From: Candidatus Aminicenantes bacterium | Lineage (GTDB): Bacteria; Acidobacteriota; Aminicenantia; Aminicenantales; UBA4085 | Length of the DNA stretch: 64,000 nt | NCBI GenBank assembly: GCA_963729855.1 | Contig: CAVSPT010000005.1 | Coordinates: forward strand, 439,661-503,660 | Direction of reading: 5' to 3' | Part shown: one piece after another, positions 48,213 through 63,394 of the stretch | Layout of the letters: the number at the start of each line of letters is the position of its first letter | Numbering within the stretch: position 1 is the stretch's first letter | Notes under the pieces: generated by a model | The model's database searches: none | The model's input: only the letters and a program-made list of their open reading frames with translations | What the model was told of the DNA's origin: nothing | Translations under genes and position numbers: made by a program

Positions 48213-48230
48213 GGCGGCGGCCTTTCCTTT

Positions 48231-48368: not shown

Positions 48369-48396
48369 TTGACAATATCGCGCACTGTGTTATATT
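48369..48396 (+). promoter_or_regulatory. Strong sigma70-like promoter (TTGACA-16-TATATT) for gdhA
   Basis: Read directly. Followed by a roughly 190-nt leader before ATG 48590. Confidence 0.5.
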
Positions 48397-48523
48397 TTCG
48401 AGAAAATTGTGAATGGCTTTGTTAAGTTATACAGATGAAGCGAGAAGATTTCTCTCCGGGGAGAAATGACCGAGGGGCCGGAACCTAAAAAGTGGCGGGG
48501 ATGAAAGAAAGCAGGGCCCCTGA

Positions 48524-49942
<1,419 letters not shown>

Positions 49943-49970
49943 TTCATCAAGCGCGATCCCGTCGCAAAAA

Positions 49971-50002
49971 GGGTGCCCGTCGCGAGACGGGCACCCTTTT
50001 TC
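49971..50002 (+). terminator. Rho-independent terminator after gdhA
   Basis: gggtgcccgtc-gcga-gacgggcaccc perfect 11-bp stem followed by tttttc. An upstream A-run makes it potentially bidirectional. Confidence 0.75.
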
Positions 50003-50106
50003 ATTTCAGAATCGGTCTTCGCTTCATCATTGAGAAAGCACGCCGCTTCATACTCCGACGGCCGGCTCGGTCGGATGGCCGGCAGGCCCTGACCCGGTTC
50101 AGGCCC

Positions 50107-50136
50107 TTGACCACGGGCCGGAGCGGGAGCTAATAT
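50107..50136 (+). promoter_or_regulatory. Sigma70-like promoter candidate (TTGACC-18-TAATAT) for comDE-like genes
   Basis: Read directly. Confidence 0.3.
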
Positions 50137-50222
50137 TCTATTCTAAGATGACAGCGATGCCGAGGTTAAGGGCCGGTTCCTCATAGAGGGCAGAAAACCA
50201 AATTCATAGAGGCCGTTGGGTG

Positions 50223-50762
50223 ATGATTAGCGCCAGATCGGTTTTGGACGAACTGAAGGCTTGCCATGTGACGTTCTGTGTCGGTTTGGCGGAAACGGCA
50301 TTGGCCGCTCTGGCCGCCCTTCTCGAGAACGATCAGTCGGTGCGGTTCGTTCCCGTGACCCGGGAAGGGGAAGCATTTGCTCTGGCTTCCGGATTGTGGA
50401 TCGGCGGACAGAACGCGGTCATCTTGGTGCAAAATACAGGATTGCTGGAGAGCGGAGATGCGCTCCGCGGAACGGCTCAACGCATGCGGGTCCCGGTCCT
50501 TTGCCTGATCGCGTATCGCGGCCACTCGCATTTGCTCGGGCAAAAAAAGCATAACGGGTCTGAGCCGCGGAATCCCGACGAGTTCAGCCGTCCCGACTTG
50601 GATTCGGCGGCTCTCGTCACGGAGCCCACATTGAATGCCTGGGGCATTCCCTTTGAATTCCTGGACTCCGATGCCGATCTCCCGAAAATATCACGAGCTT
50701 TCGACCGCGCCCAAAGGGAATCTCGGCCGGTCGCCCTCCTGGTCACGAACACGATGGTTTAA
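50223..50762 (+). CDS. Sulfopyruvate/phosphonopyruvate decarboxylase alpha-subunit-like (TPP enzyme N-terminal pyrimidine-binding half)
   Basis: About 180 aa: 'HVTFCVGLAETALAALAALLENDQSVRFVPVTREGEAFALASGLWIGGQNAVILVQNTG' fits a TPP enzyme N-terminal domain. Partnered immediately with the beta half. Confidence 0.65.
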   Translation: MISARSVLDELKACHVTFCVGLAETALAALAALLENDQSVRFVPVTREGEAFALASGLWIGGQNAVILVQNTGLLESGDALRGTAQRMRVPVLCLIAYRGHSHLLGQKKHNGSEPRNPDEFSRPDLDSAALVTEPTLNAWGIPFEFLDSDADLPKISRAFDRAQRESRPVALLVTNTMV

Positions 50763-50780
50763 TGATTCCTGGCGGAGACG

Positions 50781-51371
50781 ATGCTAACCAAGGAACAGCT
50801 GCTTAAGCCCCTGGCCCAGCTCCGAAGCACGGCCGTTGTCGTGACCTGCATGAGCGTAACGCGCCCCTGGGGACGCTATTCGTCGAGCGAGCTGGATTTT
50901 GCCTCGGCTGACAGCGCCATGGGTCATACGGCCGATCTGGCTCTGGGGATCGCTCTGGCCCAGCCGCAGCGCAAGGTCATCTGCTTAAATGGCGATGGAA
51001 GCATGTTGATGACCTTGGGAACGCTGGCCACGGTCGTCGCCGCGCGAGCCACGAACTTCGCCCTCTTCATCGTCCAGAATGATTCTTACGAGCTGACCGG
51101 ACATCAGCCGATTCCGGCGGCGGGGCGCATTGATTTTGCCCGGCTGGCGCGAGGCGCGGGTTTCGAACACGTCTATGATTTTGAAAATGCGGATGATTAT
51201 GAAAGGCGATTGCCGGCCGTTCTTGCGGAGGAAGGACCGGTGTTTGCGGCGGTTCGAGTCGAAAAAGGCGCGGAAGGCCCCATCAGCCGAAGCGCAAAGG
51301 AACCGTCTCGGTACCTTCAAGTCTCGCTCGCTGAATCAGCCCATCGTCTCAGGAAGATGTTGATATCGTAG
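50781..51371 (+). CDS. Sulfopyruvate/phosphonopyruvate decarboxylase beta-subunit-like (TPP-binding C-terminal half)
   Basis: 'ICLNGDGSMLM' GDG-x24-N thiamine-diphosphate motif. GGAG ribosome-binding site. Gene starts 19 nt after the alpha stop. Confidence 0.65.
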   Translation: MLTKEQLLKPLAQLRSTAVVVTCMSVTRPWGRYSSSELDFASADSAMGHTADLALGIALAQPQRKVICLNGDGSMLMTLGTLATVVAARATNFALFIVQNDSYELTGHQPIPAAGRIDFARLARGAGFEHVYDFENADDYERRLPAVLAEEGPVFAAVRVEKGAEGPISRSAKEPSRYLQVSLAESAHRLRKMLIS

Positions 51372-51509
51372 CCAAGCCGGCGGACCGCCCCCGCTCATCG
51401 CGCCGCCCGCCGTATGAGGTTCAAATCCTGCGGCCGAAATTATCGAAAACGATCGAAAGCCGAAAAGACCAGATCAATCATCGGGCCCAGGTCAAATCCC
51501 GGCTCCAAG

Positions 51510-51539
51510 TTGACGGATTTTTGGATTTTCCCATATAAT
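51510..51539 (+). promoter_or_regulatory. Sigma70-like promoter (TTGACG-18-TATAAT) upstream of the Cys-rich response regulator
   Basis: Read directly. Perfect -10 hexamer. Confidence 0.5.
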
Positions 51540-51660
51540 GGACAGCCGGAATGAAGATCTACTGAATACGGTGGGGCATTCCGGGGGGATTTCTTATGTT
51601 GCGCGGAGAGAGCATATTCGATAAACAAAGGAAAGCAGGGAGATCGACGTCCATTCCATA

Positions 51661-52371
51661 ATGCCGTCGGAGCCAATCATCATGGAGAAAAAGATAGGAT
51701 CCTTTATCCAGGTCTATTGTCCGGAAATCATGGACATGATCAACCCGGGAGAATGGACGGATTGCCCTTATTATCGAGGCCAGAAGCTCGACATGTCGAA
51801 TACCGAGGAGGCGTTGAAGCAGATCTTCCGCTGCCATGTCCAATGCGACTGCAAGATTCAATATCAGTATTACGAGGAGGGGAAGCTGGTGAAGAAGGTT
51901 CTCGATTCCGTGGAGGACCAGGAAAGCCTCCGCCGGATCCTTCTTCTGGTGAGCAAACCGACCGAGAAGCCGAATAAAAAAACGAAAATCCTGATCGTTG
52001 ACGACGACGCGGATTTCCTCGAAATGCACTCCGTTGTCCTGAAAAACAAGGGATACGAAGTCATCACGGCCCCGAGTGCAAAAAAATGCGAGCAGGCCCT
52101 GGAGAAAGGCCGGCCCGACCTCGTGATCCTGGACGTCATGATGGAGCAGTTCGACGCCGGATTTGAACTGAGCAAGAAGATCAAGAAGAAGTATGACGGC
52201 CTGCCGGTGATGCTCCTCACGTCCATCGGGCAACAAACAGGGCTGGACTTCTCCTCCAACGCCGAGGTCTTAAGAACGACCGGCGCCGACGCTCTTCTCG
52301 ACAAGCCGGTCAGTCCCGAGGTGTTCATCGCCGAAATTGAGAGGTTGACCGCGCCCATGAAGAAGCGGTAA
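51661..52371 (+). CDS. Response regulator with N-terminal Cys-rich domain and C-terminal receiver (REC) domain
   Basis: C-terminal 'KILIVDDDADFLEMH...DLVILDVMM...KPV' REC with phospho-acceptor Asp. N-terminal about 90 aa with C20, C35, C58, H59, C62, C64 ('YCPE','DCPYY','RCHVQCDC'). Alternative ATG at 51682 has the better ribosome-binding site. Confidence 0.7.
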   Translation: MPSEPIIMEKKIGSFIQVYCPEIMDMINPGEWTDCPYYRGQKLDMSNTEEALKQIFRCHVQCDCKIQYQYYEEGKLVKKVLDSVEDQESLRRILLLVSKPTEKPNKKTKILIVDDDADFLEMHSVVLKNKGYEVITAPSAKKCEQALEKGRPDLVILDVMMEQFDAGFELSKKIKKKYDGLPVMLLTSIGQQTGLDFSSNAEVLRTTGADALLDKPVSPEVFIAEIERLTAPMKKR

Positions 52372-52387
52372 GAGACCCGCGGCTTCC

Positions 52388-54475
52388 ATGGACATCCTCA
52401 GCATCTCCAACGCCAAGTGCCGCAAGTGCTACCGGTGCGTACGGGAGTGCCCGACCAATGCCCTGAAAATCGACCAGGGGGTGGTCAAGAGAATCTGGAG
52501 CCGCTGCATTCTCTGCGGGCTCTGCTACCGGCACTGCCCCCACGCGGCCGTGAACGCCCATACCGGAATCAAGCGCGTCCTCGATCTGCTCGAGTCGGGG
52601 CAGAAAGTCGTCGCCTGCCTGGACCCCACTTTTCCGGCGGTCTTGGACAGGGGCACGCCGGGCCAGCTTGTGACCGCGTTGAAAAAACTCGGTTTTCACG
52701 AAGTCTGGGAGGCCGCGGTCGGGGGCGACTTGGTGGCCGAACCCTACCGTTCCTGGCTCGCCCAAAATAGGGAATCTAGCTGGATTTCTTCATTCTGCCC
52801 GTCGCTCGTCTTTTACATTCAAAAATTCGCCCCCTCTCTGAGCAGCCAGCTCGTGCCGATCGTTTCTCCGATGATTGCCTGCGGCCGAGCGGTTAAACAG
52901 CTCTTGGGTGCCGACACGAAAGTGGTTTTTATCGGTCCGTGCATCTCTCGAATCTGGGAGCGCATGGACCGGAGCGGAAGGGAAGCCATCGATTATGTAT
53001 TGGTCTATCGGGACATCACCAACACTCTCAGGGCGAGAGGAATCGACCGCGAAGAACAAGAACCGTCAGAATTTGACGGGCCCCGGAGCAGCCTGGGAAG
53101 GGTCCTGAGCTTTTCGGGGGGGATGAGCAAGTGCGCCGGGTTCGAGCAGGACCTCCTGAATCTGGACTATGTGGTTGAGGCCGGAGCCCCAGAAGCCATG
53201 CGGGCCTTGAAGCAGCTCCAGGAAGGAAAGATCCGCGCGCGGTTTCTCGACTTGCTGTTGTGCCGTGGCTGCATCAACGGTCCCGTAACGGACATGCAAA
53301 TCTCGGGTCCCAGTCGAAAGCAGATTGTCGTGGATTTCATTAAAGCCCAGGATCTGGTCGAGCCGGCGAAAAAAAAGGAAGGCCTCGGGGAGCCCTCTCA
53401 TTTGAATCTCACACGGAGCTTTCGACCCCATGATGCGTCCCTGCCGGATCCCACGGACGCGGAGGTCGAGGCCGTTCTGGCTCAACTCGGGAAATCCTAC
53501 CCCGACCAAAACCTGGACTGCGGGGCCTGCGGCTACAGCTCCTGCCGGGAGAAGGCCAAGGCCATCGTCCTGGGATTGGCTGAGATGGAAATGTGCCACC
53601 ATTTTCTTTTGGAACGCCTCCAGAGCCTCTATTCGCAGCTGGAAAAGTCTCACCGCCAGCTCAAGAGCTCCCATGAGCAATTGGAGGGGGCCCAACGGCA
53701 GTTGATCCAGACGGAGAAAATGGCCTCCCTCGGACAGTTGGCGGCGGGCGTGGCCCATGAGCTGAACAACCCCATCGGCACGATCATGATGTTCAGCCGG
53801 ATGATCCAGAAGGAAATGGCCCAGGATCAAAAATGGCAGAAGGATATCACCATCGTCGTCCAGGAAGCGGACCGGGCGGCTAAGATCATCAAGGACCTGC
53901 TGAGCTTCGCCAGGGAAACGAAGGTCAAGCCAGGGCAGGTGAGCATCAATCCGGTCATCCAAGAAACCCTATCGCTTCTTGTCAAGCAATCTCTCTTTCA
54001 CAATATCGAAGTGGTTGTCCTCTTGGACCCGACGCTGCCGACGACGTTTGCCGATCCGGACCTCCTGAAGCAGGTATTTTTCAACATCATCCTGAACGGC
54101 GCCCAGGCTATGGAAGGGAAAGGGACGTTGACCATCCAAACTCAGAACATCGATAACGGCAGGACCATCGAAATCCGGATCCAAGACACCGGCAAGGGAA
54201 TCCCCGAGAAACACATCCCCAAGCTCTTCGACCCGTTCTTCACGACCAAGGAGAAGGGAACGGGGCTGGGCCTGGCCCTTGTTTACAGCATCGTTTCCAA
54301 ACACAAGGGATCGATCGCCGTAGAAAGCGAGCTGGAGAAAGGCGCCACGTTCCTCATCCGGCTGCCCATCCTGAGCCAGGAAGACTGGCTGAAGCGTGAA
54401 GGCCAGGTCGAAGACTTAGGGACCGGGCTCGAAGGAAAATACAATGAAAGCCCAAGCAAAGATCTTATTGGTTGA
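52388..54475 (+). CDS. Histidine kinase with N-terminal [FeFe]-hydrogenase-like (HydS-type sensory) domain: 2x[4Fe-4S] ferredoxin + H-domain-like + Cx2Cx4Cx16C + HisKA + HATPase_c
   Basis: 'CRKCYRCVRECP', 'CILCGLCYRHCP'. H-cluster motif analogues 'SSFCPS' (TSCCP), 'GPCISRIWE' (MPCxxKxxE), 'LLLCRGCINGP' (MACxGGCxxG). 'CGACGYSSC-x16-C'. H-box 'AHELNNPIG'. HATPase 'DTGKGIPEKH...GTGLGLALV'. Confidence 0.8.
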   Translation: MDILSISNAKCRKCYRCVRECPTNALKIDQGVVKRIWSRCILCGLCYRHCPHAAVNAHTGIKRVLDLLESGQKVVACLDPTFPAVLDRGTPGQLVTALKKLGFHEVWEAAVGGDLVAEPYRSWLAQNRESSWISSFCPSLVFYIQKFAPSLSSQLVPIVSPMIACGRAVKQLLGADTKVVFIGPCISRIWERMDRSGREAIDYVLVYRDITNTLRARGIDREEQEPSEFDGPRSSLGRVLSFSGGMSKCAGFEQDLLNLDYVVEAGAPEAMRALKQLQEGKIRARFLDLLLCRGCINGPVTDMQISGPSRKQIVVDFIKAQDLVEPAKKKEGLGEPSHLNLTRSFRPHDASLPDPTDAEVEAVLAQLGKSYPDQNLDCGACGYSSCREKAKAIVLGLAEMEMCHHFLLERLQSLYSQLEKSHRQLKSSHEQLEGAQRQLIQTEKMASLGQLAAGVAHELNNPIGTIMMFSRMIQKEMAQDQKWQKDITIVVQEADRAAKIIKDLLSFARETKVKPGQVSINPVIQETLSLLVKQSLFHNIEVVVLLDPTLPTTFADPDLLKQVFFNIILNGAQAMEGKGTLTIQTQNIDNGRTIEIRIQDTGKGIPEKHIPKLFDPFFTTKEKGTGLGLALVYSIVSKHKGSIAVESELEKGATFLIRLPILSQEDWLKREGQVEDLGTGLEGKYNESPSKDLIG

Positions 54476-54845
54476 TGACGACCCCGATTTTCTGGAGATG
54501 CACAAGGCCGTTCTCCAGAGCCGGGGCTATGAGGTTTTCACCGCCGCGAGCGCCCAGGAAGGCCTGGGACGCGTCCGGGCGGAGATGCCGGACCTGATCA
54601 TCCTGGACCTCATGATGGAGAAGCATGACGCGGGATTTTCCTTCAGCAAGGCGGTCAAGACCGACCCGCTGTTCAGGACGATCCCCATCCTCATGGTGAC
54701 GTCGGTGGCCGAGGCCACCGGCTATCGCTTTTCGCTCGAGGAAGACGGGTATTGGATGAAAACGGACGATTTCCTGAATAAGCCCGTTCCGCCTGAAGTC
54801 CTCCTGGAAGCCGTCGATAAACTCCTGCAGAAGAAAAAAGAATGA
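54444..54845 (+). CDS. Stand-alone receiver-domain response regulator (CheY-like)
   Basis: 'ILLVDDDPDFLEMH...DLIILDLMM...KPV'. Overlaps the kinase stop. Confidence 0.8.
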   Translation: MKAQAKILLVDDDPDFLEMHKAVLQSRGYEVFTAASAQEGLGRVRAEMPDLIILDLMMEKHDAGFSFSKAVKTDPLFRTIPILMVTSVAEATGYRFSLEEDGYWMKTDDFLNKPVPPEVLLEAVDKLLQKKKE

Positions 54846-54846
54846 A

Positions 54847-56325
54847 ATGAATACACAAGGCCGAATTCTCGTCGTCGACGATGAAATGGGAATCCGCGAA
54901 GGCTGCCGGCGCGTCCTGGCGGAGGAAGGGTACGACATCGACCTGGCCGGAGACGGAAATGCCGGCCTGCAGAGGGCCCGGGAGAAATCCTATGACCTCG
55001 TCCTGGTCGACCTCATGATGCCGGGCATCGGCGGGCTGGACATGATCAATAAGATCCACGAGATCGATCCCGAGATCATCATGGTCGTGATCACGGGATT
55101 TGCCACCATCGAAACGGCGGTCGAGGCGACGAAGAGGGGGGCCTACGATTACCTTCCGAAACCCTTCACTCCGGAAACGCTGGCCGTCCTGGTCAAGAGG
55201 GGGCTCGAGAAGCGGGAGCTCCGATTGGAGGCCCAGAGGCTTCAGCAGGAACGGGAGCAGAGGCTCCTGGAGCTGGCCGGTGAAAAGAGCCGCCTCCGGA
55301 GCATCATCGGCTGCATGGCCGACGGCGTTCTGGTCACGAACCTCGAGGGTCACCTGGTCCTCTGGAACGCCTCCGCCGTGAACATGCTGAAACTCCGGGG
55401 AACGGACGAACCCGGGAAACCTCCGGGCCATTACATCAAGAATCAGCCTTTGATCGAATCCCTGGCAAAAATCATGAACTCGAAGGACGAAAGTGTCTCG
55501 ATGATCAGCCAGGAGATCCCCTCGGATGACGCGAAATCGGTCCTGATGGCCCAGATGGCCCCCGTCCGGGACGACCAGGGGAAGCTTCTCGGAGCCGTGA
55601 CGGTCCTGAGGGACATCACGAAGCTCAAGGAGATCGATAAGATCAAATCCCAGTTCGTCTCCATGGTGGCGCATGAGCTTCGCTCGCCCTTGGCGGCCAT
55701 CGAAGGCTGGCTGGGCCTCCTGCTGTCCGGCGAAGTCGAAGGGGACAAAGAACAAAAACGACAATGGCTGCGGCGGGCGAAAGAGCGGGCCCACTCTCTC
55801 CTGGCTCTCGTCCAGGACTTGCTGGAGATCAACAAGATCGAGGCCGGGAAGGTCGCCCTGAAGATGGAGTCCCTCCAGATGACCGACATCCTGGGCAAGA
55901 TCATCGACTTTCTCAAGCCCGAAGCGGACAAGAAAAATGTCTCCATCCAAATGAGATCTCCCGCGCCGATTCCGCTCCTCCGGGCCGACGTTCAGGACAT
56001 GGAAAAGCTCTTCACCAACCTGATCAGCAATGCCATCAAATACAACGTCGAGAAGGGTTCGATCACGATCGAAACGTCTTTGGATGCGAACTACGTCGGG
56101 ATTCACGTCCACGATACCGGGATCGGCATATCCCGGGACGACCTTCCGCGGATTTTCGACGATTTCTTCCGGGCCGAAAACAGCAAAACGGCTAAGATCA
56201 GCGGAACAGGACTGGGGTTGACGATCGCCAAGAAAATCGTGGACTCCCACTTCGGGCATATCGAAGTGAAGAGCGAGCCGGATAAGGGAAGCACCTTCTC
56301 CGTCTACCTGCCTTACCGGACATGA
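54847..56325 (+). CDS. Hybrid sensor: N-terminal receiver + PAS + HisKA + HATPase_c histidine kinase
   Basis: 'ILVVDDEMGIREG...DLVLVDLMMPG', PAS-like 'IGCMADGVLVTNLEGHLVLWN', 'VAHELRSPLAAI', 'GTGLGLTIAKKIV'. Confidence 0.8.
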   Translation: MNTQGRILVVDDEMGIREGCRRVLAEEGYDIDLAGDGNAGLQRAREKSYDLVLVDLMMPGIGGLDMINKIHEIDPEIIMVVITGFATIETAVEATKRGAYDYLPKPFTPETLAVLVKRGLEKRELRLEAQRLQQEREQRLLELAGEKSRLRSIIGCMADGVLVTNLEGHLVLWNASAVNMLKLRGTDEPGKPPGHYIKNQPLIESLAKIMNSKDESVSMISQEIPSDDAKSVLMAQMAPVRDDQGKLLGAVTVLRDITKLKEIDKIKSQFVSMVAHELRSPLAAIEGWLGLLLSGEVEGDKEQKRQWLRRAKERAHSLLALVQDLLEINKIEAGKVALKMESLQMTDILGKIIDFLKPEADKKNVSIQMRSPAPIPLLRADVQDMEKLFTNLISNAIKYNVEKGSITIETSLDANYVGIHVHDTGIGISRDDLPRIFDDFFRAENSKTAKISGTGLGLTIAKKIVDSHFGHIEVKSEPDKGSTFSVYLPYRT

Positions 56326-56347
56326 AAGAAGAGCAAAGAGAGCCGAG

Positions 56348-58612
56348 ATGAGTCTAAGCCGAACGCATCAACCCAACGAAATCCTCAGGAAGGAGCAGCT
56401 GGCTCCGGCGATCACGCTGTTCGAAGTCTATGCTCCGCTCGTCGCCCGAACCGTCCGGGCCGGCCAGTTTGTCGTCGTTCGGGCCGACGACTATGCGGAA
56501 CGGATTCCGCTCACGGTCGCCGACCGCAGCCTCGAAAACCAATCCATCACCCTGATCGTCCAAGTCGTCGGCCTCTCGACCAGGAAGATGGACACGCTCA
56601 AAGCCGGGGATGCGTTCCTCGACGTCGTCGGGCCCCTGGGGCAGCCGACGGAGATCAAGAAGGCCGGGACCGTGGTCTGTATCGGGGGAGGCGTCGGCGT
56701 CGCGCCCGTCTATCCCATCACCAAAGCTTTCAGAGCGGCGGGAAGCCGCATTCTGGCCATCATCGGCGCTAAGAACAAAGAGATGATCATCCTGGAAAAC
56801 GAGATGCGGGCCGTGAGCGACGAGCTTTACATCACGACGGACGACGGCACGGCCGGCCGCCGGGGGTTCGTCTCGGACGAACTCCAAAGGCTGATCACGG
56901 ACAAAGTGCCGATCGACCTGGTCATCGCCATCGGGCCCGGGATCATGATGAAAGTCATATCCGACATCACCAGGAAACACGGGATCCCGACGATCATCAG
57001 CCTGAACTCGCTGATGGTGGACGGGACCGGCATGTGCGGCAGCTGCCGGATCACCGTGGGGAACGAGACGAAGTTTGTCTGTGTCGACGGGCCCGAGTTC
57101 GACGCCCACCAGGTGGATTTCCAGGAGCTCCTCAAGAGGTCGGAAATGTACAAGCGAGAGGAGCACCGGGCCATGTGGGATCATGCCTGCCGGCTCCTGG
57201 CCGCCGAGAAGGCGCTCGGCAAGGCCAAACGTCGGGAGCCCATGCCCAAACAGGACCCCAAGCTCCGGGTTCAAAATTTCAACGAGGTCGCCCTGGGCTA
57301 CACCAAGGAGCAGGCCATTCGTGAAGCCTCGCGGTGCTTGAGTTGTAAAAAGTCGCCCTGCGTGGCCGGATGCCCGGTCGACATCGATATCCCGGGCTTC
57401 ATCGAACTCGTCCGGAAGGGCGACCTCATCGCGGCCAGTCATAAGATCAAAGAGAAGAACAGCCTCCCCGCCATCTGCGGACGGGTCTGCCCCCAGGAAG
57501 AGCAATGCGAGGTCGCCTGCGTCCTGTCCAAAAAAGGGCAGCCCATCGCCATCGGTCGGCTGGAACGGTACGTGGCCGATTATGAATTCCAGCAGGGGGA
57601 CGTCCGGATGCCGAAAAATCTGAGCCCGACGGGGAAAAAGGTCGCCGTCATCGGGGCCGGGCCGGCCGGTTTGTCGGCGGCCAGCGAACTTGCCAAAATG
57701 GGGCACAGCGTCATCGTCTTCGAGGCCCTCCACAAGCCGGGCGGCGTTCTCGTTTACGGGATTCCCGAGTTCCGTCTTCCCAAGTGGATCGTCCAGCGCG
57801 AATGCGAATACATCGGCAGGCTGGGGGCCGAAATCCGGGTGAGCCAGGTCGCCGGAAAATCCTTCACCATCGACGACCTTTTGAGCAACGGCTATGATGC
57901 CGTCTTCATCGGGACCGGGGCGGGCCTGCCGTACTTCATGAAAATCCCCGGGGAGAACCTGAACGGGGTGTACTCGGCCAACGAGTTCCTGTCCCGGGTG
58001 AACCTCATGAAGGCCTATCTTTTCCCGGAATTCCAGACCCCCGTCCATTATGGGCAGAAGATCGCCGTCGTGGGAGGCGGGAACGTGGCCATGGATTCCG
58101 CCCGGACCTCGCTCCGCTTGGGAGCCGAAAAAGTCTACCTGATCTACCGCCGGGCGAGAGAACAAATGCCGGCCCGCGAGGAGGAGATCGAGAACGCTTT
58201 CGAGGAAGGCGTCGAACCGCGCCTGCTGACCAATCCCATTCGGATCCTGGGAAACGAAAAAGGCTGGGTGAAGGGGATCGAATGCATCCAGATGGAGCTC
58301 GGAGAAGCGGATGGATCAGGCCGGAGACGGCCAATTCCCAAAAAGGGCTCTGAGCACATTATTGATGTCGACATGGTGATCATGGCCATCGGCCAGGGCC
58401 CCAATCCCCTCTTGACGTCGACGACCGCCGGCTTGGCGCTGACAAAGACGGGGAACATCATTGCCGACGAAACGACGGGCAAGACCTCGAAGAAAGGAGT
58501 GTTCGCCGGCGGCGACATCGTCACCGGCGCGGCCACGGTCATCCTGGCCATGGGGGCGGGCAAAAAGGCGGCCCAATCGATCGACGTCTATTTAAGGACT
58601 GGAGAGTGGTGA
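56348..58612 (+). CDS. Fused NfnA-NfnB-like flavoprotein: PyrK/SudB-like FAD + [2Fe-2S] domain fused to GltD/SudA-like 2x[4Fe-4S] FAD/NAD(P)H oxidoreductase
   Basis: N-terminal half 'GGGVGVAPV', 'CGSCRI...C.DGPEF'. C-terminal half 'CLSCKKSPCVAGCP', 'CGRVCPQEEQCEVAC', 'VAVIGAGPAGLSAA', 'GVFAGGDIVTG'. Confidence 0.8.
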   Translation: MSLSRTHQPNEILRKEQLAPAITLFEVYAPLVARTVRAGQFVVVRADDYAERIPLTVADRSLENQSITLIVQVVGLSTRKMDTLKAGDAFLDVVGPLGQPTEIKKAGTVVCIGGGVGVAPVYPITKAFRAAGSRILAIIGAKNKEMIILENEMRAVSDELYITTDDGTAGRRGFVSDELQRLITDKVPIDLVIAIGPGIMMKVISDITRKHGIPTIISLNSLMVDGTGMCGSCRITVGNETKFVCVDGPEFDAHQVDFQELLKRSEMYKREEHRAMWDHACRLLAAEKALGKAKRREPMPKQDPKLRVQNFNEVALGYTKEQAIREASRCLSCKKSPCVAGCPVDIDIPGFIELVRKGDLIAASHKIKEKNSLPAICGRVCPQEEQCEVACVLSKKGQPIAIGRLERYVADYEFQQGDVRMPKNLSPTGKKVAVIGAGPAGLSAASELAKMGHSVIVFEALHKPGGVLVYGIPEFRLPKWIVQRECEYIGRLGAEIRVSQVAGKSFTIDDLLSNGYDAVFIGTGAGLPYFMKIPGENLNGVYSANEFLSRVNLMKAYLFPEFQTPVHYGQKIAVVGGGNVAMDSARTSLRLGAEKVYLIYRRAREQMPAREEEIENAFEEGVEPRLLTNPIRILGNEKGWVKGIECIQMELGEADGSGRRRPIPKKGSEHIIDVDMVIMAIGQGPNPLLTSTTAGLALTKTGNIIADETTGKTSKKGVFAGGDIVTGAATVILAMGAGKKAAQSIDVYLRTGEW

Positions 58613-58944: not shown

Positions 58945-59886
58945 ATGTTCTCAAGACCGCGGCTTGCCGTTGCCGTCCTTCTCTTGGGCCTGGCCGTCGC
59001 CGCGCGCCCGGCCGCGGCCCAGGAAAAAAGCGGGGAACTCACCCACCAGATCTCCGTGCGCGCGATCTCCCTCGCCGTCACCGTCCAGGACAGGTCCGGG
59101 CGGTACGTCAACGACCTGGGCCGGGAGGATTTCACGGTCCTCGAGAACGGCCAGAAGAAGGAGATCACCTATTTCAAATACGATTTCGAGGCCCCCCTGA
59201 GCCTGGCCGTCCTCCTCGACGTCAGCGGAAGCATGGCCCTCCAGGACAAGCTCAAGGACTGCCGGGAGGCTCTGAAGGCTTTGATCACCGGACGTCTCGG
59301 TCCGCGCGACGAGGTCGCGCTCCTCATCTTCGCCGACGGGCAGGTCGAGGTCGCGGCGCCGTTCTCGACCGATAAGACCCGCTTCCTGGCCGTTTTGGAC
59401 AGGACCGAGGCCTTCGGGCAGACGGCCCTGAACGACGCCGTGACCGCATCGTCGGAATTCGCCAACCGGGGGCATAACGAGAAGAGGACCCTCCTCCTGC
59501 TGACGGACGGAATCGAGAACGACAGCCGGACGACCCCGGACCAGGCCCTCCAGATCGCCCGGCGCGTGGACGTCCCCATCTACACGGTCGGATATAAAAT
59601 CCCCCTGAGCGAACGGCTCCTCCTGGAGCATAAGCGGCGCGCGGGGACGACGCCGGCCGGAATCATCGACGATTTGCAGAAGTTCTCCCGGACCACGGGC
59701 GGGAAAGCGTTCCTCTCGAATTCCCCGCCGGAGCTGAAGGGGGCGCTGGACGAGATCCGGCGCGAGGTGAGCCACCAATACCTTTTGGGGTATACTTCCT
59801 ATAAGGATCCGGGGGGCGAGTATAGAGAAATCAGCGTCCTGACCTCCAACAAGGGATATCGAGTCAGGACGCGCCAAGGATATTGA
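58945..59886 (+). CDS. Secreted von Willebrand factor A (VWA) domain protein
   Basis: MIDAS 'LLDVSGSM', signal peptide, AAGGA ribosome-binding site. Confidence 0.75.
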   Translation: MFSRPRLAVAVLLLGLAVAARPAAAQEKSGELTHQISVRAISLAVTVQDRSGRYVNDLGREDFTVLENGQKKEITYFKYDFEAPLSLAVLLDVSGSMALQDKLKDCREALKALITGRLGPRDEVALLIFADGQVEVAAPFSTDKTRFLAVLDRTEAFGQTALNDAVTASSEFANRGHNEKRTLLLLTDGIENDSRTTPDQALQIARRVDVPIYTVGYKIPLSERLLLEHKRRAGTTPAGIIDDLQKFSRTTGGKAFLSNSPPELKGALDEIRREVSHQYLLGYTSYKDPGGEYREISVLTSNKGYRVRTRQGY

Positions 59887-59907
59887 GGGAACTCAAAGGA
59901 GGTCCAC

Positions 59908-60543
59908 ATGAGGAACAGCAGGAGAGCGGCTCTGGTCCTGGCCGTCGCCCTGGTCGGCCTGGTCCTGGCCCCGGCCTGCGCGACCAAGACGATGGTCAAC
60001 GAGCAGATCGCCGGCCTGGACAAGAAGGTCGAGGGCGTGGAGACGTCGGTCGAGGAAAACCAGAAAAGGCTCAAGGAGCACGACGAACGGCTGGCCACCA
60101 TCGGTTCGCTGATCAGCCAGCAAGAGGCCCAATTCAAGGCCGTCGACGGGAAGATCGAAGACGTCCGGAAAGTCGCCCAGGGCAAGCTCCTCTACCAGGA
60201 GACGATCCGGAACAAGGACGCCCATTTCAAGTTCGACAGCTACGAACTGAGCCCGGAGATCAAGTCCGCCCTGGACGCCTTTGTCGAAAAGCTCATCGCC
60301 GAAAACAAAGGAGTCTACCTCGAGATCCAGGGCCACACCGACTCGGTCGGGCCGGAGGAATGGAACCTGATCCTGGGGAACAAACGGGCCGGGGCGGTCC
60401 TCGAATACCTCTACAAGCAGCACCACATCCCGCTCCACCGCATGCAGGTCATCAGTTTCGGGAGCGCCAATCCGGTGGGCGACAACAAGACGGCCGAGGG
60501 ACGGGCCCAGAACCGGAGAGTGGAGGTCCTCGTTTACGAATGA
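59908..60543 (+). CDS. OmpA-family lipoprotein (coiled-coil N-terminal region plus OmpA-like peptidoglycan-binding domain)
   Basis: Lipobox 'LAPAC'. OmpA C-terminal 'IQGHTDSVGPEEWNLILGNKRAGAV...RRVEVLVYE'. AAAGGAGG ribosome-binding site. Confidence 0.8.
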   Translation: MRNSRRAALVLAVALVGLVLAPACATKTMVNEQIAGLDKKVEGVETSVEENQKRLKEHDERLATIGSLISQQEAQFKAVDGKIEDVRKVAQGKLLYQETIRNKDAHFKFDSYELSPEIKSALDAFVEKLIAENKGVYLEIQGHTDSVGPEEWNLILGNKRAGAVLEYLYKQHHIPLHRMQVISFGSANPVGDNKTAEGRAQNRRVEVLVYE

Positions 60544-60610
60544 CCTGAGATTTTGAAGCTTGGAGGGGGGCCTGTCCGGAGGGGGGCGATCCCCCTGCTC
60601 CCGTGCGCCG

Positions 60611-63394
60611 TCAAGTTTCTACGCCGCACCTCTTGCCGGGGTCGGACAGGAAGCCCAGGCCGATCTCGCTGTCGGCATCGATAACGACGCACATCTCACA
60701 GCCGCCGCAGGCCGCGGGCACGTCGATGACCCTCAGGACGCCGGCCAAGTGCTCGTACTCGGGCAGGAGGCCGGGCAAAGAGTTCGGGGACTGGAGGAAG
60801 AAATCCCGGGCGAAAATAATCCCCTCCTCGTCCGGGTAGAGGGCCAGGTAATAGATCCGGGACTCGACCAGGTCCTGGAAGAAATGCGTCCCGAAGGACA
60901 GGTCGGGGACGTAATTGCCGACCTTGCGGGCGATCTCGATCAGCATGGCCGAGTTGTTGATGTCCGAATAGGTGACGTTGACGCCCAGCTTGATGTCCCC
61001 CCGGCTCCCCCACCGGCCCGGGCCCATGAGGACGAAGGAGCGGCGGGGCAGCATGGCGTTGAGCCGGCTGACCGCTTCTCCGATGGCGACCATGTCGCCG
61101 TGCGAGGCCACGGCCGCGTATTCGTCGGGGTCGATATAGACGATGGTCTTGATCCCCCCGACCCGGGCATTGGTCAGGAATTTGTTGGCCGAGAAGAGCT
61201 TGCGTTTTTCCGGGATCCAGCTGGGGACGACGACCGGCACTTCATCGCCCAGGCGGCTCTGGGGGCGGCACTGGAGGATGTGGAGCATGGTCCCGTCATG
61301 GGCGAACTCGACGTCCATGGGGATGCCGAAAGCCTCCTGCAGGACGCGCATGATCTCGCGCATCTGCTTGAGGAAGGGGGTATTTTCGATCAGCCCGGCG
61401 AAGTTGACGACCAGGACGTCGCGGTCAAGCCGGCTCATGGCCCGGCTGGCTTTACGAACCGTGCTCCCGTCGTAGACGGAGAAGAGGCGGTCCCAAAGAG
61501 GAAATCCCTCCCCGACGTCCTGCAGGATGTCCTCGATCGGGTGGGTTTCGAAACGGCGGGTCTCGATGTTGATGACGTCGATGCTCTTCTGGGAGTAATG
61601 GAGGATCTGCTCGGGGGTGGCATTGACGCGGATTCCCGGCTGGCCGGGGCTGACGAGCATGGGATAGTCGTTGCTCAGGCGGTCGACGGCCCGCGTGCCC
61701 AGGCCGGTCACCAGGCGCAGGACGCCGTCCTCGCGCTTGATGCGAGGCGACCAGCGGAATTCGTTGTTTCCGAAGGCCACCCCGGCGAAGGCCGGAAAGA
61801 AATACTTCCCCACCCTTTTCCCGACGACGCGCTGAATGAGGACGCCCATCTCTTCGTAATAGTCGAGCAGGCCGCGTTCGGACCGGTACTGGATGGCGTC
61901 GGGGTTGAAAATGGAGGCGTAGACCTCGGCCACGGCGTCGCCCAGGGCGGCCAGCCGCTCCTCCTTGGTCCCGACATTGGCCAGGAAAAGGCTGCGGTAC
62001 TTCCCGGAAAAGGCCGAGCCGCGGCTGTCCTCGAGCAGGCTCGAGGAGCGGACGATGAGCGGCCCCTCGCCGGCGTCCTCCAGGATGAGCTTGAGCTGGA
62101 CCATCATCTCCGGGGAGAAGAAGGACTGCTTGCAGACCTGTTCGAGATAGGGGTAGTTGTGGCGGATCTCCTCGATGGGCGAGAATTTGAAGCTCTGCAA
62201 ATCCTCGAGGAAATTGTAATGGATAAAGTCCATCAGCCCGTCCGAAGTGACGAACCAGGATTCGGGCACACGGAACTCCCCGATGACCGGATCACCCAAC
62301 GCTTTCTTCCTCAGGATATGCTCGCCCAGGATCATGCCCGCCGACTTCCCCCCCAGCCGGCCGGTTCCCTGGCCGGGGCCCGTGACCCGGGAAAGGACGC
62401 GGTGGAAATCGTGGACAGTCATGTGATCGCGGGCAATGCGGATGAACTGGAGCCGGTCGCTGAGGAAACGGCGGATCAGAGCGATACGGGCCTGAAGATC
62501 GTCCGATTGGGACAGGGCCTGTTCGTCCTCGCGCGTCGAGCGGCAGAAACGGTTGACGATCTCCTTGATCTCGAGCAGGCTGATCTCCCGTTTCTCCATG
62601 GCCACCATGAAGAAATTGAGCTTGTCCTGGCGGGCCCACTGCTTGATCAAGGCGGTCAGGTCGCGGTCGGTCAAGGCCAGGGAGGCGATCCAAAGGGCCT
62701 CCTCAAAGACCTTCTCCAGTGAAGCCACGCTATGCTTGGGCAAAGGCTGGTTTTCGTCACGGCCGGCCGTCAGGTCGCCGCCGTATAATTCCGGGGAGAA
62801 GTGATAGAGAAGGCCCTGCACGCCCGGCACGCCCTGCCAGTGCAGGTGGTTCATAAGCCGCCGCAGGATGCGCTTATAGAGCAGGGGGTCGGTTTCGCGA
62901 AGCAGGTCAAGAATGACCTCCCAATCGGCCTTTCGTTTGCCCGGGGCCTCGACACGGACGTTGGAGCCGTAAGCCGGAGGGACGCCTTCCCAATCCTCGA
63001 TGAGCCGCCCCAGTCGGTTGGCGATGAGCTCAATGAGCTTCTTCTCCTCGAGCGTAAAGGGGTCCTCGCGCCGGGGCGAAGCGTTCTCGAAATAGCAGAC
63101 TTCCAGAGTGCCGACCGTGACGCCGCGCGTCCGCAGCGGAACGCGCTGGATCCATTTGGTCTCGACGAACCCGGGGGAGAAAAAAACGGCCTGGCGATAC
63201 TTGATCCGGGCCCGGCACAGGTCCGGATACTGCCAGCCCGAGGGAATGGTATCGACGATTTTCTGGAGGATTTTCTCCGAGGACAGCCCCGGGGTCCCGA
63301 GGAGGGCGACGATCGCCTGAAGGCACTCCAGTTCCTTGACCCGCTCGCGCAACGCGCCTCCCGGAAATTCGGCCTGCGTCCGGTCTTGGCTCAT
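60611..63394 (-). CDS. Large protein with central PEP/pyruvate-binding (PPDK_N / PEP-synthase N-terminal-like) domain, no recognisable phospho-His swivel motif
   Basis: 'LIVRSSSLLEDSRGSAFSGKYRSLFLANV' matches the PPDK_N core. I could not find a GG(R/K)TSHAAI-type motif. ATG at 63394 after GGGAGG. Confidence 0.6.
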   Translation of the reverse strand: MSQDRTQAEFPGGALRERVKELECLQAIVALLGTPGLSSEKILQKIVDTIPSGWQYPDLCRARIKYRQAVFFSPGFVETKWIQRVPLRTRGVTVGTLEVCYFENASPRREDPFTLEEKKLIELIANRLGRLIEDWEGVPPAYGSNVRVEAPGKRKADWEVILDLLRETDPLLYKRILRRLMNHLHWQGVPGVQGLLYHFSPELYGGDLTAGRDENQPLPKHSVASLEKVFEEALWIASLALTDRDLTALIKQWARQDKLNFFMVAMEKREISLLEIKEIVNRFCRSTREDEQALSQSDDLQARIALIRRFLSDRLQFIRIARDHMTVHDFHRVLSRVTGPGQGTGRLGGKSAGMILGEHILRKKALGDPVIGEFRVPESWFVTSDGLMDFIHYNFLEDLQSFKFSPIEEIRHNYPYLEQVCKQSFFSPEMMVQLKLILEDAGEGPLIVRSSSLLEDSRGSAFSGKYRSLFLANVGTKEERLAALGDAVAEVYASIFNPDAIQYRSERGLLDYYEEMGVLIQRVVGKRVGKYFFPAFAGVAFGNNEFRWSPRIKREDGVLRLVTGLGTRAVDRLSNDYPMLVSPGQPGIRVNATPEQILHYSQKSIDVINIETRRFETHPIEDILQDVGEGFPLWDRLFSVYDGSTVRKASRAMSRLDRDVLVVNFAGLIENTPFLKQMREIMRVLQEAFGIPMDVEFAHDGTMLHILQCRPQSRLGDEVPVVVPSWIPEKRKLFSANKFLTNARVGGIKTIVYIDPDEYAAVASHGDMVAIGEAVSRLNAMLPRRSFVLMGPGRWGSRGDIKLGVNVTYSDINNSAMLIEIARKVGNYVPDLSFGTHFFQDLVESRIYYLALYPDEEGIIFARDFFLQSPNSLPGLLPEYEHLAGVLRVIDVPAACGGCEMCVVIDADSEIGLGFLSDPGKRCGVET

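What the first reader, a model, noticed from the sequence alone, without database searches (positions are those of the whole stretch)
51661..58612. Candidate redox/H2-responsive phosphorelay wired to a fused Nfn-like bifurcating flavoprotein
Five consecutive same-strand genes with short gaps or overlaps: a Cys-rich-domain response regulator, the hydrogenase-like histidine kinase, a single-domain receiver, a REC-PAS hybrid kinase, and a fused NfnAB-like (ferredoxin/NAD(P)H) oxidoreductase. Two kinases, three receivers and no DNA-binding output domain suggest a multi-step phosphorelay whose output is protein-protein or enzymatic rather than transcriptional. A sensor related to a metabolic redox enzyme sitting beside an NADPH/ferredoxin-linked enzyme would fit a dedicated redox-balancing circuit. 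I do not recognise this gene combination as a described system.
Basis: inference. Interest (0 to 1): 0.7.

Follow-up and report, generated by a model that had tools for sequence, protein, structure and literature searches.

The report
Hydrogenase-like kinase cascade with fused Nfn
Five co-oriented genes encode a histidine kinase whose sensor is a hydrogenase-like iron-sulfur domain, a second kinase, two small receiver proteins and a fused NfnAB transhydrogenase; the set recurs intact in many uncultured anaerobes and gives a testable route to how putative "sensory" [FeFe]-hydrogenases pass on their signal.

Summary
The five + strand genes, their domains and their tight spacing (16, -32, 1 and 22 nt) are real. 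The only correction is that g1 probably starts at 51682, not 51661.

The arrangement is not chance. The same five-gene cassette occurs in at least 8 independent related loci with unrelated flanks. All 3 loci reached from the Nfn gene alone also carry it.

The core triad (sensor-kinase, single receiver, receiver-kinase) persists down to 35-42% identity. It is found in an Armatimonadota genome and in many metagenome contigs. There it lies beside NfnAB or, more often, directly after HydCBA bifurcating hydrogenase genes, often with Rex and HydG.

The sensor has the group C (HydS) architecture, with the PAS domain replaced by a directly fused kinase. HydDB already lists a putative "C1, histidine kinase-linked" class.

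Family typing favours a two-tier kinase cascade, not a His-Asp-His-Asp relay: g2 (AtoS/ZraS-like) to the NtrC-type receiver of g4, then g4 (PhoR/WalK-like) to g3 and g1. No DNA-binding domain is present. The Cys4 domain of g1 matches no known fold.

H2 sensing, the phosphotransfer order and any action on Nfn are inferred. Verdict: a new variant of a known kind, of moderate to high interest.

The parts
51510..51539 (+). sigma-70-type promoter candidate for the cassette (TTGACG-18-TATAAT)
   Evidence: 11 of 12 consensus matches. TTGAC(G/C)-N17/18-TATA(A/C)T aligns at the same place upstream of g1 in L098, L097, L007, L002 and L004. No sigma-54 box nearby.
51682..52371 (+). g1: response regulator with an N-terminal Cys4 domain (the ORF can be read from 51661, but 51682 is the likely start)
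   Evidence: Pfam finds REC only. Homologues are 226-232 aa and cover 95-97% of the query. A GGAG lies before ATG 51682.
51682..51972 (+). g1 N-terminal domain of about 97 aa with four invariant Cys and one invariant His (C13, C28, C51, H52, C55 counted from M at 51682)
51988..52338 (+). g1 receiver domain (PhoB/DivK-like type)
52388..54475 (+). g2: sensor histidine kinase with a HydS-like (group C type) [FeFe]-hydrogenase sensor
   Evidence: Pfam. PDB matches to [FeFe]-hydrogenases over residues 4-250 and to ZraS/KinB kinase cores. Hundreds of homologues share the same architecture.
52388..52567 (+). g2 N-terminal 2x[4Fe-4S] ferredoxin-like module
   Evidence: Fer4 families. C11, C14, C17, C21, C40, C43, C46 and C50 are invariant in A3.
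52604..53284 (+). g2 H-domain. Motifs SSFCP, GPCISRIWE and LLLCRGCING; cluster Cys 137, 185, 292 and 295
   Evidence: Fe_hyd_lg_C profile positions 2-245 of 245. Residue-by-residue alignment to CpI and HydA. Conservation counts.
53510..53596 (+). g2 C-terminal Cx2Cx4Cx16C cluster motif (C378, C381, C386, C403). It runs into a Pro-free predicted helix that leads to H457
   Evidence: PF04060. Motif scan. All 99 clade members keep the four Cys. Same motif as in TmHydS and TamHydS (PMC8163306). Segment 404-456 has 0 Pro.
53729..54370 (+). g2 kinase core (HisKA with H457, plus HATPase_c), AtoS/ZraS-like
   Evidence: Pfam. PDB ZraS 9JFJ E=2e-41. NCBIfam AtoS 257 bits and ZraS 203 bits.
54444..54845 (+). 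g3: single-domain receiver whose start overlaps the end of g2 by 32 nt
   Evidence: Pfam REC only. The overlap is conserved in L007, L010, L097 and L098. PDB best hits are stand-alone receivers and PleD.
54847..56325 (+). g4: REC(NtrC-type)-PAS-HisKA-HATPase_c kinase
   Evidence: Pfam. Its REC is closest to NtrC4, NtrX and NtrC1 and to the sigma-54 regulators encoded next to HydS-kinases in L015 and L016. Its kinase core is PnpS/WalK/PhoR-like.
56348..58612 (+). g5: fused NfnA-NfnB (NADH-dependent ferredoxin:NADP+ oxidoreductase-like). NfnA part about 56375-57169, NfnB part about 57227-58609
   Evidence: PDB 4YLF_B E=4.9e-184, 5JCA_L 2e-154, 4YLF_A 1.9e-77. NCBIfam NF009414 scores 1077.6 bits against a cut-off of 1103. 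Homologues are 75-96% identical and 754 aa long.

Best explanation
The region is one operon encoding a two-tier two-component cascade, co-transcribed with a fused NfnAB transhydrogenase. It serves redox and H2 homeostasis in a fermentative Aminicenantes-type anaerobe.

Shown:
- The cassette is a conserved unit with its own conserved sigma-70-type promoter.
- g2 is a HydS-type sensor. It has two accessory [4Fe-4S] motifs, an H-domain with all four cluster cysteines but no proton-transfer cysteine, and the C-terminal Cx2Cx4Cx16C motif. A complete histidine kinase replaces the usual PAS domain.
- Both kinases and all three receivers keep their catalytic residues.
- g5 is a close homologue of structurally characterised NfnAB.

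Inferred mechanism:
1. H2, or the ferredoxin/H2 redox poise, sets the redox state of the H-domain cluster(s) and of the C-terminal [4Fe-4S].
2. That cluster's last cysteine sits on a Pro-free helix running about 54 residues into the phospho-accepting H457, so cluster reduction changes autophosphorylation.
3. The AtoS/ZraS-like g2 transfers phosphate to the NtrC-type receiver at the N-terminus of g4.
4. This, together with the g4 PAS input, switches the PhoR/WalK-like g4 kinase. g4 then phosphorylates the single-domain receiver g3 and, in this clade, the Cys4-domain receiver g1.
5. No member has a DNA-binding domain. Output is therefore through protein-protein contacts with an unidentified target, or through a regulator encoded elsewhere.
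6. Nfn is at least co-expressed with the module and may be its target. Physiologically, H2 pressure decides whether NADPH (for example from the adjacent NADP-GDH) can be disposed of via Nfn, ferredoxin and hydrogenase.
For: Domains and spacing.

Conserved cassette: L002, L004, L007, L008, L010/L011. The reciprocal test from Nfn gave 3 of 3 loci (L097-L099) with unrelated flanks.

Deep conservation of the triad beside bifurcating enzymes:
- L012: g2-g3-g4 followed by the fused Nfn, with a split NfnAB and an FDH-like cluster upstream.
- L014, Armatimonadota: HydG/E/F, NfnA, NfnB, then the triad.
- L021-L028 and L031: HydCBA then the triad, often followed by Rex, HydG and a TM1266-like gene.

Group C features: compared with PMC8163306.

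Kinase and receiver typing:
- g4 REC scores 111 and 103 bits against the NtrC-type regulators paired with HydS-kinases in L015 and L016. g1 and g3 score about 50 bits.
- PDB typing and NCBIfam typing agree.
- The single receiver co-occurs with the REC-kinase and never with the NtrC-type partner.

Promoter conservation.

NADP-GDH next to the cassette in the window and L098; a less similar GDH gene lies nearby in L007 and L002.
Against: - No experiment shows that any HK-fused HydS binds an H-cluster or responds to H2. The sensory role is still called putative even for PAS-type group C enzymes (PMC8924675, PMC8163306).
- In this clade the [2Fe] pocket is altered: K358 to R, C299 to F, A230 to D, and the last motif is one residue shorter (CxGC instead of CxGGC).
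- No hydE/F/G genes lie in this window.
- The phosphotransfer order rests on family resemblance and co-occurrence, not on specificity residues or assays.
- g3, not g4, is the gene translationally coupled to g2, which could equally mean that g2 phosphorylates g3.
- Most distant relatives of the triad sit beside HydABC, not Nfn. Nfn may therefore be merely a co-regulated passenger.
Confidence: 0.55

Rival explanations
1. Fe-S redox sensor rather than H2 sensor. The H-domain of this clade no longer carries the [2Fe] subcluster. Like Nar1-type proteins it holds only [4Fe-4S] clusters, and it reports ferredoxin/NAD(P)H poise, O2 or NO to the kinase. The downstream cascade is as in the best explanation.
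For: Pocket substitutions are fixed in 96-99 of 99 clade members: K358 to R, C299 to F, A230 to D, S232 to T. There is a one-residue deletion in the CxxxC loop. No maturase genes lie in the window. phmmer alignments to true hydrogenases fade after residue 250.
Against: All four cluster cysteines, including the bridging one, are invariant, as are P231, P324, E361 and the TmHydS-like M353 to G change. Relatives with the same CxGC motif lie directly beside hydE/G/F (L014, L016) or hydG (L026, L028, L031). Cassette-bearing contigs L008 and L010 also carry the start of a HydABC-type cluster and an M2e-type HydS.
Confidence: 0.25
2. True His-Asp-His-Asp phosphorelay. g2 phosphorylates the adjacent single receiver g3 (Spo0F-like). 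g3~P passes the phosphate to the DHp histidine of g4 (Spo0B-like use of a kinase), which passes it on to g1 or to g4's own receiver.
For: g3 overlaps g2 by 32 nt in every cassette, and a single receiver directly follows the sensor-kinase in the triad loci. There are two His and three Asp sites and no output domain.
Against: No Hpt or Spo0B-type domain is present. g4 keeps complete N, G1, F and G2 ATP-binding motifs. Where the sensor-kinase has a single partner, that partner is an NtrC-type receiver (L015, L016, L030), the same type as the g4 receiver. The g2 kinase core is AtoS/ZraS-like, while the g1 and g3 receivers are PhoB/DivK-like.
Confidence: 0.15
3. Coincidental adjacency. The signalling genes and Nfn are unrelated neighbours.
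For: None beyond the lack of direct functional data. In many distant loci the triad occurs without Nfn.
Against: At least 8 independent loci hold the identical five-gene order while their flanks differ completely. Nfn-first sampling gave 3 of 3. The Nfn link persists at 40-46% sensor-kinase identity and in a second phylum.
Confidence: 0.03

Closest known systems
Putative sensory [FeFe]-hydrogenases of group C (HydS; TmHydS of Thermotoga maritima, M2f subclass) and group D (TamHydS, M2e)
   Same: N-terminal 2x[4Fe-4S]. H-domain with four cluster cysteines. Loss of the proton-transfer cysteine. C-terminal Cx2Cx4Cx16C cluster. M353 to Gly as in TmHydS. Location beside bifurcating-enzyme genes (PMC8163306).
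   Different: There is no PAS domain; a complete HisKA-HATPase kinase follows the C-terminal cluster directly. The last H-cluster motif is CxGC, not CxGGC. This clade has K358 to R and C299 to F. The partner genes are two receivers, a second kinase and Nfn, not PP2C-type phosphatases or anti-sigma-like kinases.
HydDB class [FeFe] group C1, 'histidine kinase-linked (putative)' (PMC5037454)
   Same: A hydrogenase-like sensor linked to a histidine kinase, with a proposed H2-sensing role.
   Different: The class is defined only by sequence clustering, with 'undetermined role'. In the papers I could search, it comes with no description of the conserved sensor-kinase / receiver / receiver-kinase triad or of the Nfn-containing cassette. 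I could not run the HydDB classifier.
[NiFe] regulatory hydrogenase systems (HoxBC-HoxJ-HoxA of Cupriavidus necator; HupUV-HupT-HupR); from my own knowledge and HydDB class 2b
   Same: It works alike in principle: a slow, non-metabolic hydrogenase reports H2 to a histidine kinase that controls redox-enzyme genes through an NtrC-type receiver.
   Different: The metal site is unrelated ([NiFe] versus [FeFe]-type). There the sensor and kinase are separate proteins and the regulator binds DNA. Here the sensor is fused to the kinase, and the NtrC-type receiver drives a second kinase instead of an AAA+/HTH module.
NfnAB (T. maritima 4YLF, P. furiosus NfnI 5JCA) and the fused form named by NCBIfam NF009414
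   Same: Both subunit homologues are present with very strong similarity over their full lengths. Single-chain fusions are already a recognised family.
   Different: The score falls just under the NF009414 cut-off (1077.6 versus 1103 bits). The gene is embedded as the last gene of a signalling operon, which I did not find described.
Single-domain-receiver circuits such as DivJ/PleC-DivK-DivL-CckA (from my own knowledge)
   Same: A stand-alone receiver acts as the diffusible output or modulator between two kinases, with output by protein-protein contact.
   Different: There is no homology beyond the generic domains, and nothing here is tested.

Membership tests
[FeFe]-hydrogenase group C (HydS-type putative sensors) | H-domain with the four cysteines that hold the [4Fe-4S]H cluster and bridge to [2Fe]H | tested here: met
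   C137, C185, C292 and C295 align with CpI C300, C355, C499 and C503. C137, C292 and C295 are kept in all 99 clade members and C185 in 98 of 99.
[FeFe]-hydrogenase group C (HydS-type putative sensors) | [quoted passage not shown] | tested here: met
   Fer4 families at residues 5-58. Eight Cys are invariant in A3.
[FeFe]-hydrogenase group C (HydS-type putative sensors) | C-terminal Cx2Cx4Cx16C motif | tested here: met
   C378-x2-C381-x4-C386-x16-C403. Defined in PMC8163306.
[FeFe]-hydrogenase group C (HydS-type putative sensors) | Proton-transfer cysteine (CpI C299) absent | tested here: met
   SSFCP: Phe at that position, in 99 of 99 clade members.
[FeFe]-hydrogenase group C (HydS-type putative sensors) | PAS domain fused after the C-terminal cluster | tested here: not met
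   HisKA follows directly, with no PAS in g2. PAS-type relatives are about 574 aa.
[FeFe]-hydrogenase group C (HydS-type putative sensors) | Canonical third motif with Cx3C spacing (ExMxCxxGCxxG) | tested here: not met
   LLLCRGCING has Cx2C. Of the 150 nearest cluster representatives, 69 share Cx2C, and 40 of those 69 are kinase-fused.
[FeFe]-hydrogenase group C (HydS-type putative sensors) | Binds an H-cluster and reacts with H2 | not testable with these tools
   Needs maturation plus FTIR, EPR or electrochemistry. The only indirect support is relatives lying beside hydE/F/G.
HydDB [FeFe] group C1 (histidine kinase-linked) | Clusters with C1 reference sequences in the HydDB classifier | not tested
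   The classifier is not available here. Only the kinase link is shown.
NfnAB transhydrogenase | NfnA-type (FAD/NAD, [2Fe-2S]) and NfnB-type (2x[4Fe-4S], FAD, NADPH) modules, full length | tested here: met
   4YLF_A covers residues 10-273 and 4YLF_B covers 294-754 (E=1.9e-77 and 4.9e-184). Pfam DHODB_Fe-S_bind, Fer4_20 and Pyr_redox_2.
NfnAB transhydrogenase | Passes the curated cut-off of the fused-form model NF009414 | tested here: inconclusive
   1077.6 bits against a cut-off of 1103.
NfnAB transhydrogenase | Electron-bifurcating NADH/Fd:NADP+ activity | not testable with these tools
   Needs an enzyme assay.
Multi-step His-Asp-His-Asp phosphorelay | An Hpt or Spo0B-type histidine phosphotransfer module, or a hybrid kinase with a C-terminal receiver | tested here: not met
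   No Hpt family in any of the five proteins. The g4 receiver is N-terminal, and g4 has a complete ATP-binding core.
Canonical two-component proteins | Kinase H-box His and ATP-binding N, G1, F and G2 boxes; receiver acidic pocket, phospho-Asp, Thr/Ser and Lys | tested here: met
   g2 has H457, N570, D600/G602/G604 and G626-L629 invariant. The g4 motifs were read from the sequence. Receiver residues are conserved.
[NiFe] regulatory hydrogenase system (HoxBC/HoxJ/HoxA type) | Group 2b [NiFe] sensor subunits plus a DNA-binding NtrC-type regulator | tested here: not met
   No NiFe hydrogenase family in the cassette, and no AAA+ or HTH domain.

The most novel reading that the evidence does not exclude
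The sensor-kinase and the co-encoded Nfn form an electron-transfer pair. Nfn clamps the accessory clusters of g2 to the NAD(P)H/ferredoxin poise while the H-domain reads H2, so the kinase works as a comparator of H2 against the pyridine-nucleotide and ferredoxin pools. The DNA-binding-free receivers g3 and g1 then act directly on flavin-based electron-bifurcating enzymes (Nfn here, HydABC in other lineages). This would be post-translational two-component control of electron bifurcation. The Cys4 domain of g1 would be a new metal-binding effector fold.
Probability: 0.12. Interest if true: 0.85.

Novelty: new variant of a known kind. Interest (0 to 1): 0.6.

Why it matters
How putative sensory [FeFe]-hydrogenases pass on their signal is an open question. 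The TamHydS paper asks explicitly how signal transduction is achieved (PMC8163306), and reviews still call the sensory role putative (PMC8924675).

In this family the readout is built in. The sensor is fused to a kinase, so H2-dependent autophosphorylation can be assayed directly, and the conserved partner proteins are named by synteny.

The repeated placement of the module beside NfnAB or HydABC suggests that anaerobes regulate electron-bifurcating enzymes in response to H2. That bears on fermentation balance and interspecies H2 transfer in sediments, where Aminicenantes-type bacteria are abundant.

Tried and rejected
- Sigma-54 promoter search (TGGCAC-N5-TTGCW, up to 2 mismatches): 9 hits against 17 expected by chance, none near the cassette.
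- Intrinsic terminator after g5: none convincing.
- Rfam over 47.5-60.5 kb at E<=1: nothing.
- Literature searches for HK-fused HydS, for Nfn with a sensory hydrogenase, and for Aminicenantes with Nfn: only the HydDB class label and general group C/D papers. No description of the triad or the cassette. The library lacks most subscription-journal papers, so absence is weak evidence.
- DNA-binding role for the g1 N-domain: thought unlikely. It is acidic (pI 5.4) and shows no HTH-like match, but this is not excluded.
- My first regular expression for motif 2, and three proton-path positions, were mis-indexed. Those rows are not used.
- The Nfn homologue search returned only relatives at 75% identity or more, all 754-aa fusions. 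It could not show whether distant fused Nfn genes occur outside the cassette.
Full report
**Observation**

The window carries five + strand ORFs at 51661/51682-52371, 52388-54475, 54444-54845, 54847-56325 and 56348-58612.
- g1: an N-terminal region of about 100 aa without any family match, then a receiver (REC).
- g2: two [4Fe-4S] ferredoxin motifs, a full-length Fe_hyd_lg_C match (E=1e-40), PF04060 'FeS', HisKA and HATPase_c.
- g3: a receiver alone.
- g4: REC-PAS-HisKA-HATPase_c.
- g5: DHODB_Fe-S_bind/NAD_binding_1 followed by Fer4_20/Pyr_redox_2.

g5 matches T. maritima NfnB (4YLF_B, E=4.9e-184, residues 294-754) and NfnA (4YLF_A, E=1.9e-77, residues 10-273). It is therefore a true NfnA-NfnB fusion. 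It also scores 1077.6 bits on NCBIfam NF009414, the recognised fused form, just below the cut-off of 1103.

Gene spacing is 16, -32, 1 and 22 nt. No DNA-binding family is found in any of the five proteins.

There is one correction. g1 homologues are 226-232 aa, and a conserved GGAG precedes ATG 51682, so that is the likely start.

**Is it more than chance?**

Yes. Starting from g2, complete cassettes with the same order were found in these loci:
- L002 and L004, at 72-73% g2 identity.
- L007 at 67%, L008 at 60%, and L010/L011 at 58%.

The flanking genes differ between loci:
- L007: a NuoE-NuoF-FdhA-like-NfnA-NfnB cluster.
- L008 and L010: fumarase and HycI upstream. Downstream lie DRTGG, a kinase-like ATPase, an M2e-type HydS, a PHP-domain gene and the start of a NuoE-type gene, i.e. 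a HydABC-type cluster cut off by the end of the locus.

Starting independently from the fused Nfn, 3 of 3 sampled loci (L097, L098, L099) carry the same five genes. Their flanks are again unrelated: glycoside hydrolases in L097, GDH with a split TPP enzyme and a [NiFe] hydrogenase in L098, and a nitroreductase with GH95 in L099.

The 32-nt g2/g3 overlap is conserved in L007, L010, L097 and L098. A TTGAC(G/C)-N17/18-TATA(A/C)T promoter-like element aligns upstream of g1 in six loci.

**Taxon**

Named relatives are mostly 'Candidatus Aminicenantes bacterium' MAGs, with a few bins labelled Terriglobales or Eubacteriales. The g2 protein itself lies on a 1.38-Mb contig.

**Deeper conservation**

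An exhaustive search with the sensor part (residues 1-421) found 607 cluster representatives at E<1e-30. The Aminicenantes-type clade collapses to one representative, and the next relatives are at 41% identity or less.

The closest outgroup, P0241 (L012), has g2-g3-g4-fused Nfn without g1. This follows a NuoE-NuoF-FdhA-like-NfnA-NfnB cluster. P0244 comes from a closed Armatimonadota genome (UCH33399.1, L014). There the order is HydG/E, HydF, NfnA, NfnB, then sensor-kinase, REC, REC-PAS-kinase.

I then ran a metagenome scan with an alignment of kinase-fused sensors and a domain-architecture script. The triad [sensor-kinase][single REC][REC-(PAS)-kinase] appears in L017, L021-L028, L031 and L032.
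- In L021-L028 and L031 it directly follows NuoE-NuoF-HydA, that is, HydCBA.
- In L024, L026-L028 and L031 it is followed by Rex. L026 continues with FAD synthetase, HydG and a TM1266-like 'iron-only hydrogenase system regulator'.

Other partners also exist:
- An NtrC-type sigma-54 activator in L015, L016 and L030.
- A direct sensor-AAA+ fusion in L033 and L034.

So the triad is a widespread module attached to flavin-based bifurcating enzymes. The Nfn-bearing five-gene version is the Aminicenantes-type form.

**The sensor**

Residue-level alignment to CpI and HydA structures, together with conservation counts, gives this picture:
- All four cluster cysteines are present (C137, C185, C292, C295).
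- The proton-transfer cysteine is replaced (SSFCP, with Phe in 99 of 99 clade members).
- M353 is Gly, as reported for TmHydS, and M497 is Leu.
- The C-terminal motif is exactly Cx2Cx4Cx16C, as described for TmHydS and TamHydS (PMC8163306).

It differs from those proteins in four ways:
- There is no PAS domain.
- The last motif is one residue shorter (CRGC instead of CxGGC).
- K358 is Arg in 98 of 99 clade members.
- A230 is Asp.

Among the 150 nearest representatives, the Cx2C form goes with kinase fusion: 40 kinase-fused and 29 other, against 6 kinase-fused and 73 other for Cx3C.

C403, the last ligand of the C-terminal cluster, is followed by 53 residues without proline up to H457. The sequence therefore suggests a continuous signalling helix from cluster to phospho-acceptor.

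[quoted passage not shown] Reviews still treat the sensory function of group C as putative (PMC8924675, PMC11216029).

**Wiring**

Both kinases keep the H, N, G1, F and G2 motifs. All three receivers keep the acidic pocket, the phospho-Asp, Thr/Ser and Lys.

Family typing gives the following:
- The g2 kinase core is closest to AtoS and ZraS, the partners of NtrC-type regulators (ZraS 9JFJ E=2e-41).
- The g4 receiver is closest to NtrC4, NtrX and NtrC1. It scores 111 and 103 bits against the receivers of the sigma-54 regulators encoded next to sensor-kinases in L015 and L016. g1 and g3 score about 50 bits against them.
- The g4 kinase core is PnpS/WalK/PhoR-like.
- The g1 and g3 receivers are PhoB/PleD/DivK-like.
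- The single receiver is present wherever the REC-kinase is present, and absent where the partner is an NtrC-type regulator.

The most economical reading is g2 to g4-REC, then g4 kinase to g3 (and g1). This is a kinase cascade in which the NtrC-type receiver drives a kinase instead of an AAA+/HTH module.

A His-Asp-His-Asp relay through g3 is not excluded, because g3 is the gene translationally coupled to g2. But there is no Hpt or Spo0B-type module, and g4 has a complete ATP-binding core.

**Output**

None of the proteins has a DNA-binding family.

The g1 N-domain has these features:
- Four invariant Cys and one invariant His, within FIxVYCPE...WTxCP...QIFRCHVQC.
- It is acidic (pI 5.4).
- It is predicted as beta-beta-alpha-beta-beta-alpha at moderate confidence.
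- It occurs only in Aminicenantes-type loci.

It is best described as an uncharacterised, probably metal-binding, domain.

Output is therefore either by protein-protein contact, with Nfn an obvious but untested candidate, or through a regulator encoded elsewhere.

**Physiological sense (inference)**

The window and L098 place an NADP-specific glutamate dehydrogenase (NF006929, 766 bits, above its cut-off) and a split TPP decarboxylase just upstream. A less similar GDH gene lies near the cassette in L007 and L002, and the TPP decarboxylase genes recur in L002.

An 11-subunit nuoABCDHIJKLMN operon without nuoEFG lies on the other strand.

In an amino-acid fermenter, NADPH from GDH can be re-oxidised by Nfn to give NADH and reduced ferredoxin. 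These are then disposed of as H2, which is feasible only at low H2 pressure. An H2-responsive circuit co-expressed with Nfn fits this scheme.

**Comparison and novelty**

In working principle the closest systems are the [NiFe] regulatory hydrogenase circuits (HoxBC-HoxJ-HoxA, HupUV-HupT-HupR). In ancestry they are the group C/D HydS proteins.

The parts are all known families, and the sensor class has a database label. What I did not find described is:
- the conserved sensor-kinase / receiver / receiver-kinase triad;
- its systematic placement beside NfnAB or HydABC;
- the five-gene Nfn cassette with a Cys4-domain receiver.

I rate it a new variant of a known kind. Its main value is that it makes signal transduction by putative sensory [FeFe]-hydrogenases directly testable.

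**Limits**

- H-cluster binding, H2 responsiveness, the order of phosphotransfer and any action on Nfn are not shown.
- The literature library lacks many subscription-journal papers.
- No hydE/F/G genes lie in this 64-kb window.
- The rest of the genome could not be examined.

Noticed in passing
window 37031-48212, minus strand: An 11-gene complex I-type operon, nuoA-B-C-D-H-I-J-K-L-M-N, with no nuoE/F/G (the NADH-oxidising module). A PadR regulator (47865-48212) and a 341-aa ORF without any Pfam match (46853-47878) head it. Such 11-subunit forms are thought to take electrons from ferredoxin rather than NADH, which would fit the ferredoxin-centred neighbourhood.
   Followed up: partly
window 48590-49942 and 50220-51371: An NADP-specific glutamate dehydrogenase (above the NCBIfam cut-off) and a two-gene split TPP decarboxylase (sulfopyruvate/phosphonopyruvate decarboxylase-like, below cut-offs) lie just upstream of the cassette. 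The same genes flank the cassette in L098, and the decarboxylase genes recur on the opposite strand in L002. A less similar GDH gene (about 31% identity) lies near the cassette in L007 and L002.
   Followed up: partly
window 48000-58000: G+C falls to 0.53-0.60 across GDH, the decarboxylase genes and the cassette (lowest, 0.53-0.58, at 48-56 kb). Elsewhere in the window it is 0.63-0.68. This could reflect acquisition of the block or simply its amino-acid composition.
   Followed up: no
L033 7785-10298; L034 about 5110-7326: A HydS-like sensor (residues 1-414 equivalent) is fused directly to a sigma-54 AAA+ activator module. This would be a one-component version of the same sensing idea.
   Followed up: no
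L007 1-6941; L012 682-7557: A five-gene cluster, NuoE-NuoF-(Fer2/4Fe-4S/molybdopterin FdhA-like)-NfnA-NfnB, lies directly upstream of the cassette. It looks like a formate-dehydrogenase-type complex that includes a split NfnAB pair, a combination I do not recognise.
   Followed up: no
L026 3822-15215 (similar in L024, L027, L028, L031): The order is HydC-HydB-HydA, sensor-kinase, single REC, REC-kinase (no PAS), Rex, FAD synthetase, HydG, TM1266-like regulator. A second, non-kinase HydS-like gene lies on the opposite strand upstream.
   Followed up: partly
L098 10282-16295, minus strand: A soluble [NiFe] hydrogenase cluster (HoxH-like large subunit, small subunit, NuoG-like and NuoE/F-like subunits) with HypA and a cobW/HypB-like gene lies next to the cassette. 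Cassette-bearing organisms therefore combine several H2 enzymes.
   Followed up: no
g2 residues 288-299 (window 53249-53284) and the 150 nearest relatives: A one-residue deletion in the third H-cluster motif (CxGC instead of CxGGC) tracks with kinase fusion: 40 of 69 Cx2C proteins against 6 of 79 Cx3C proteins. The window protein also has Leu291, where 98 of 99 clade members have Phe.
   Followed up: partly
window 60611-63394, minus strand: A 927-aa protein with a PPDK_N (pyruvate phosphate dikinase AMP/ATP-binding) domain. PPDK_N proteins also lie downstream of the cassette in L007. The overlapping + strand ORFs 59883-60548 and 60560-62722 have no family match, and the one whose third-position G+C was measured (59883-60548, 0.34) is probably not a gene.
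   Followed up: no
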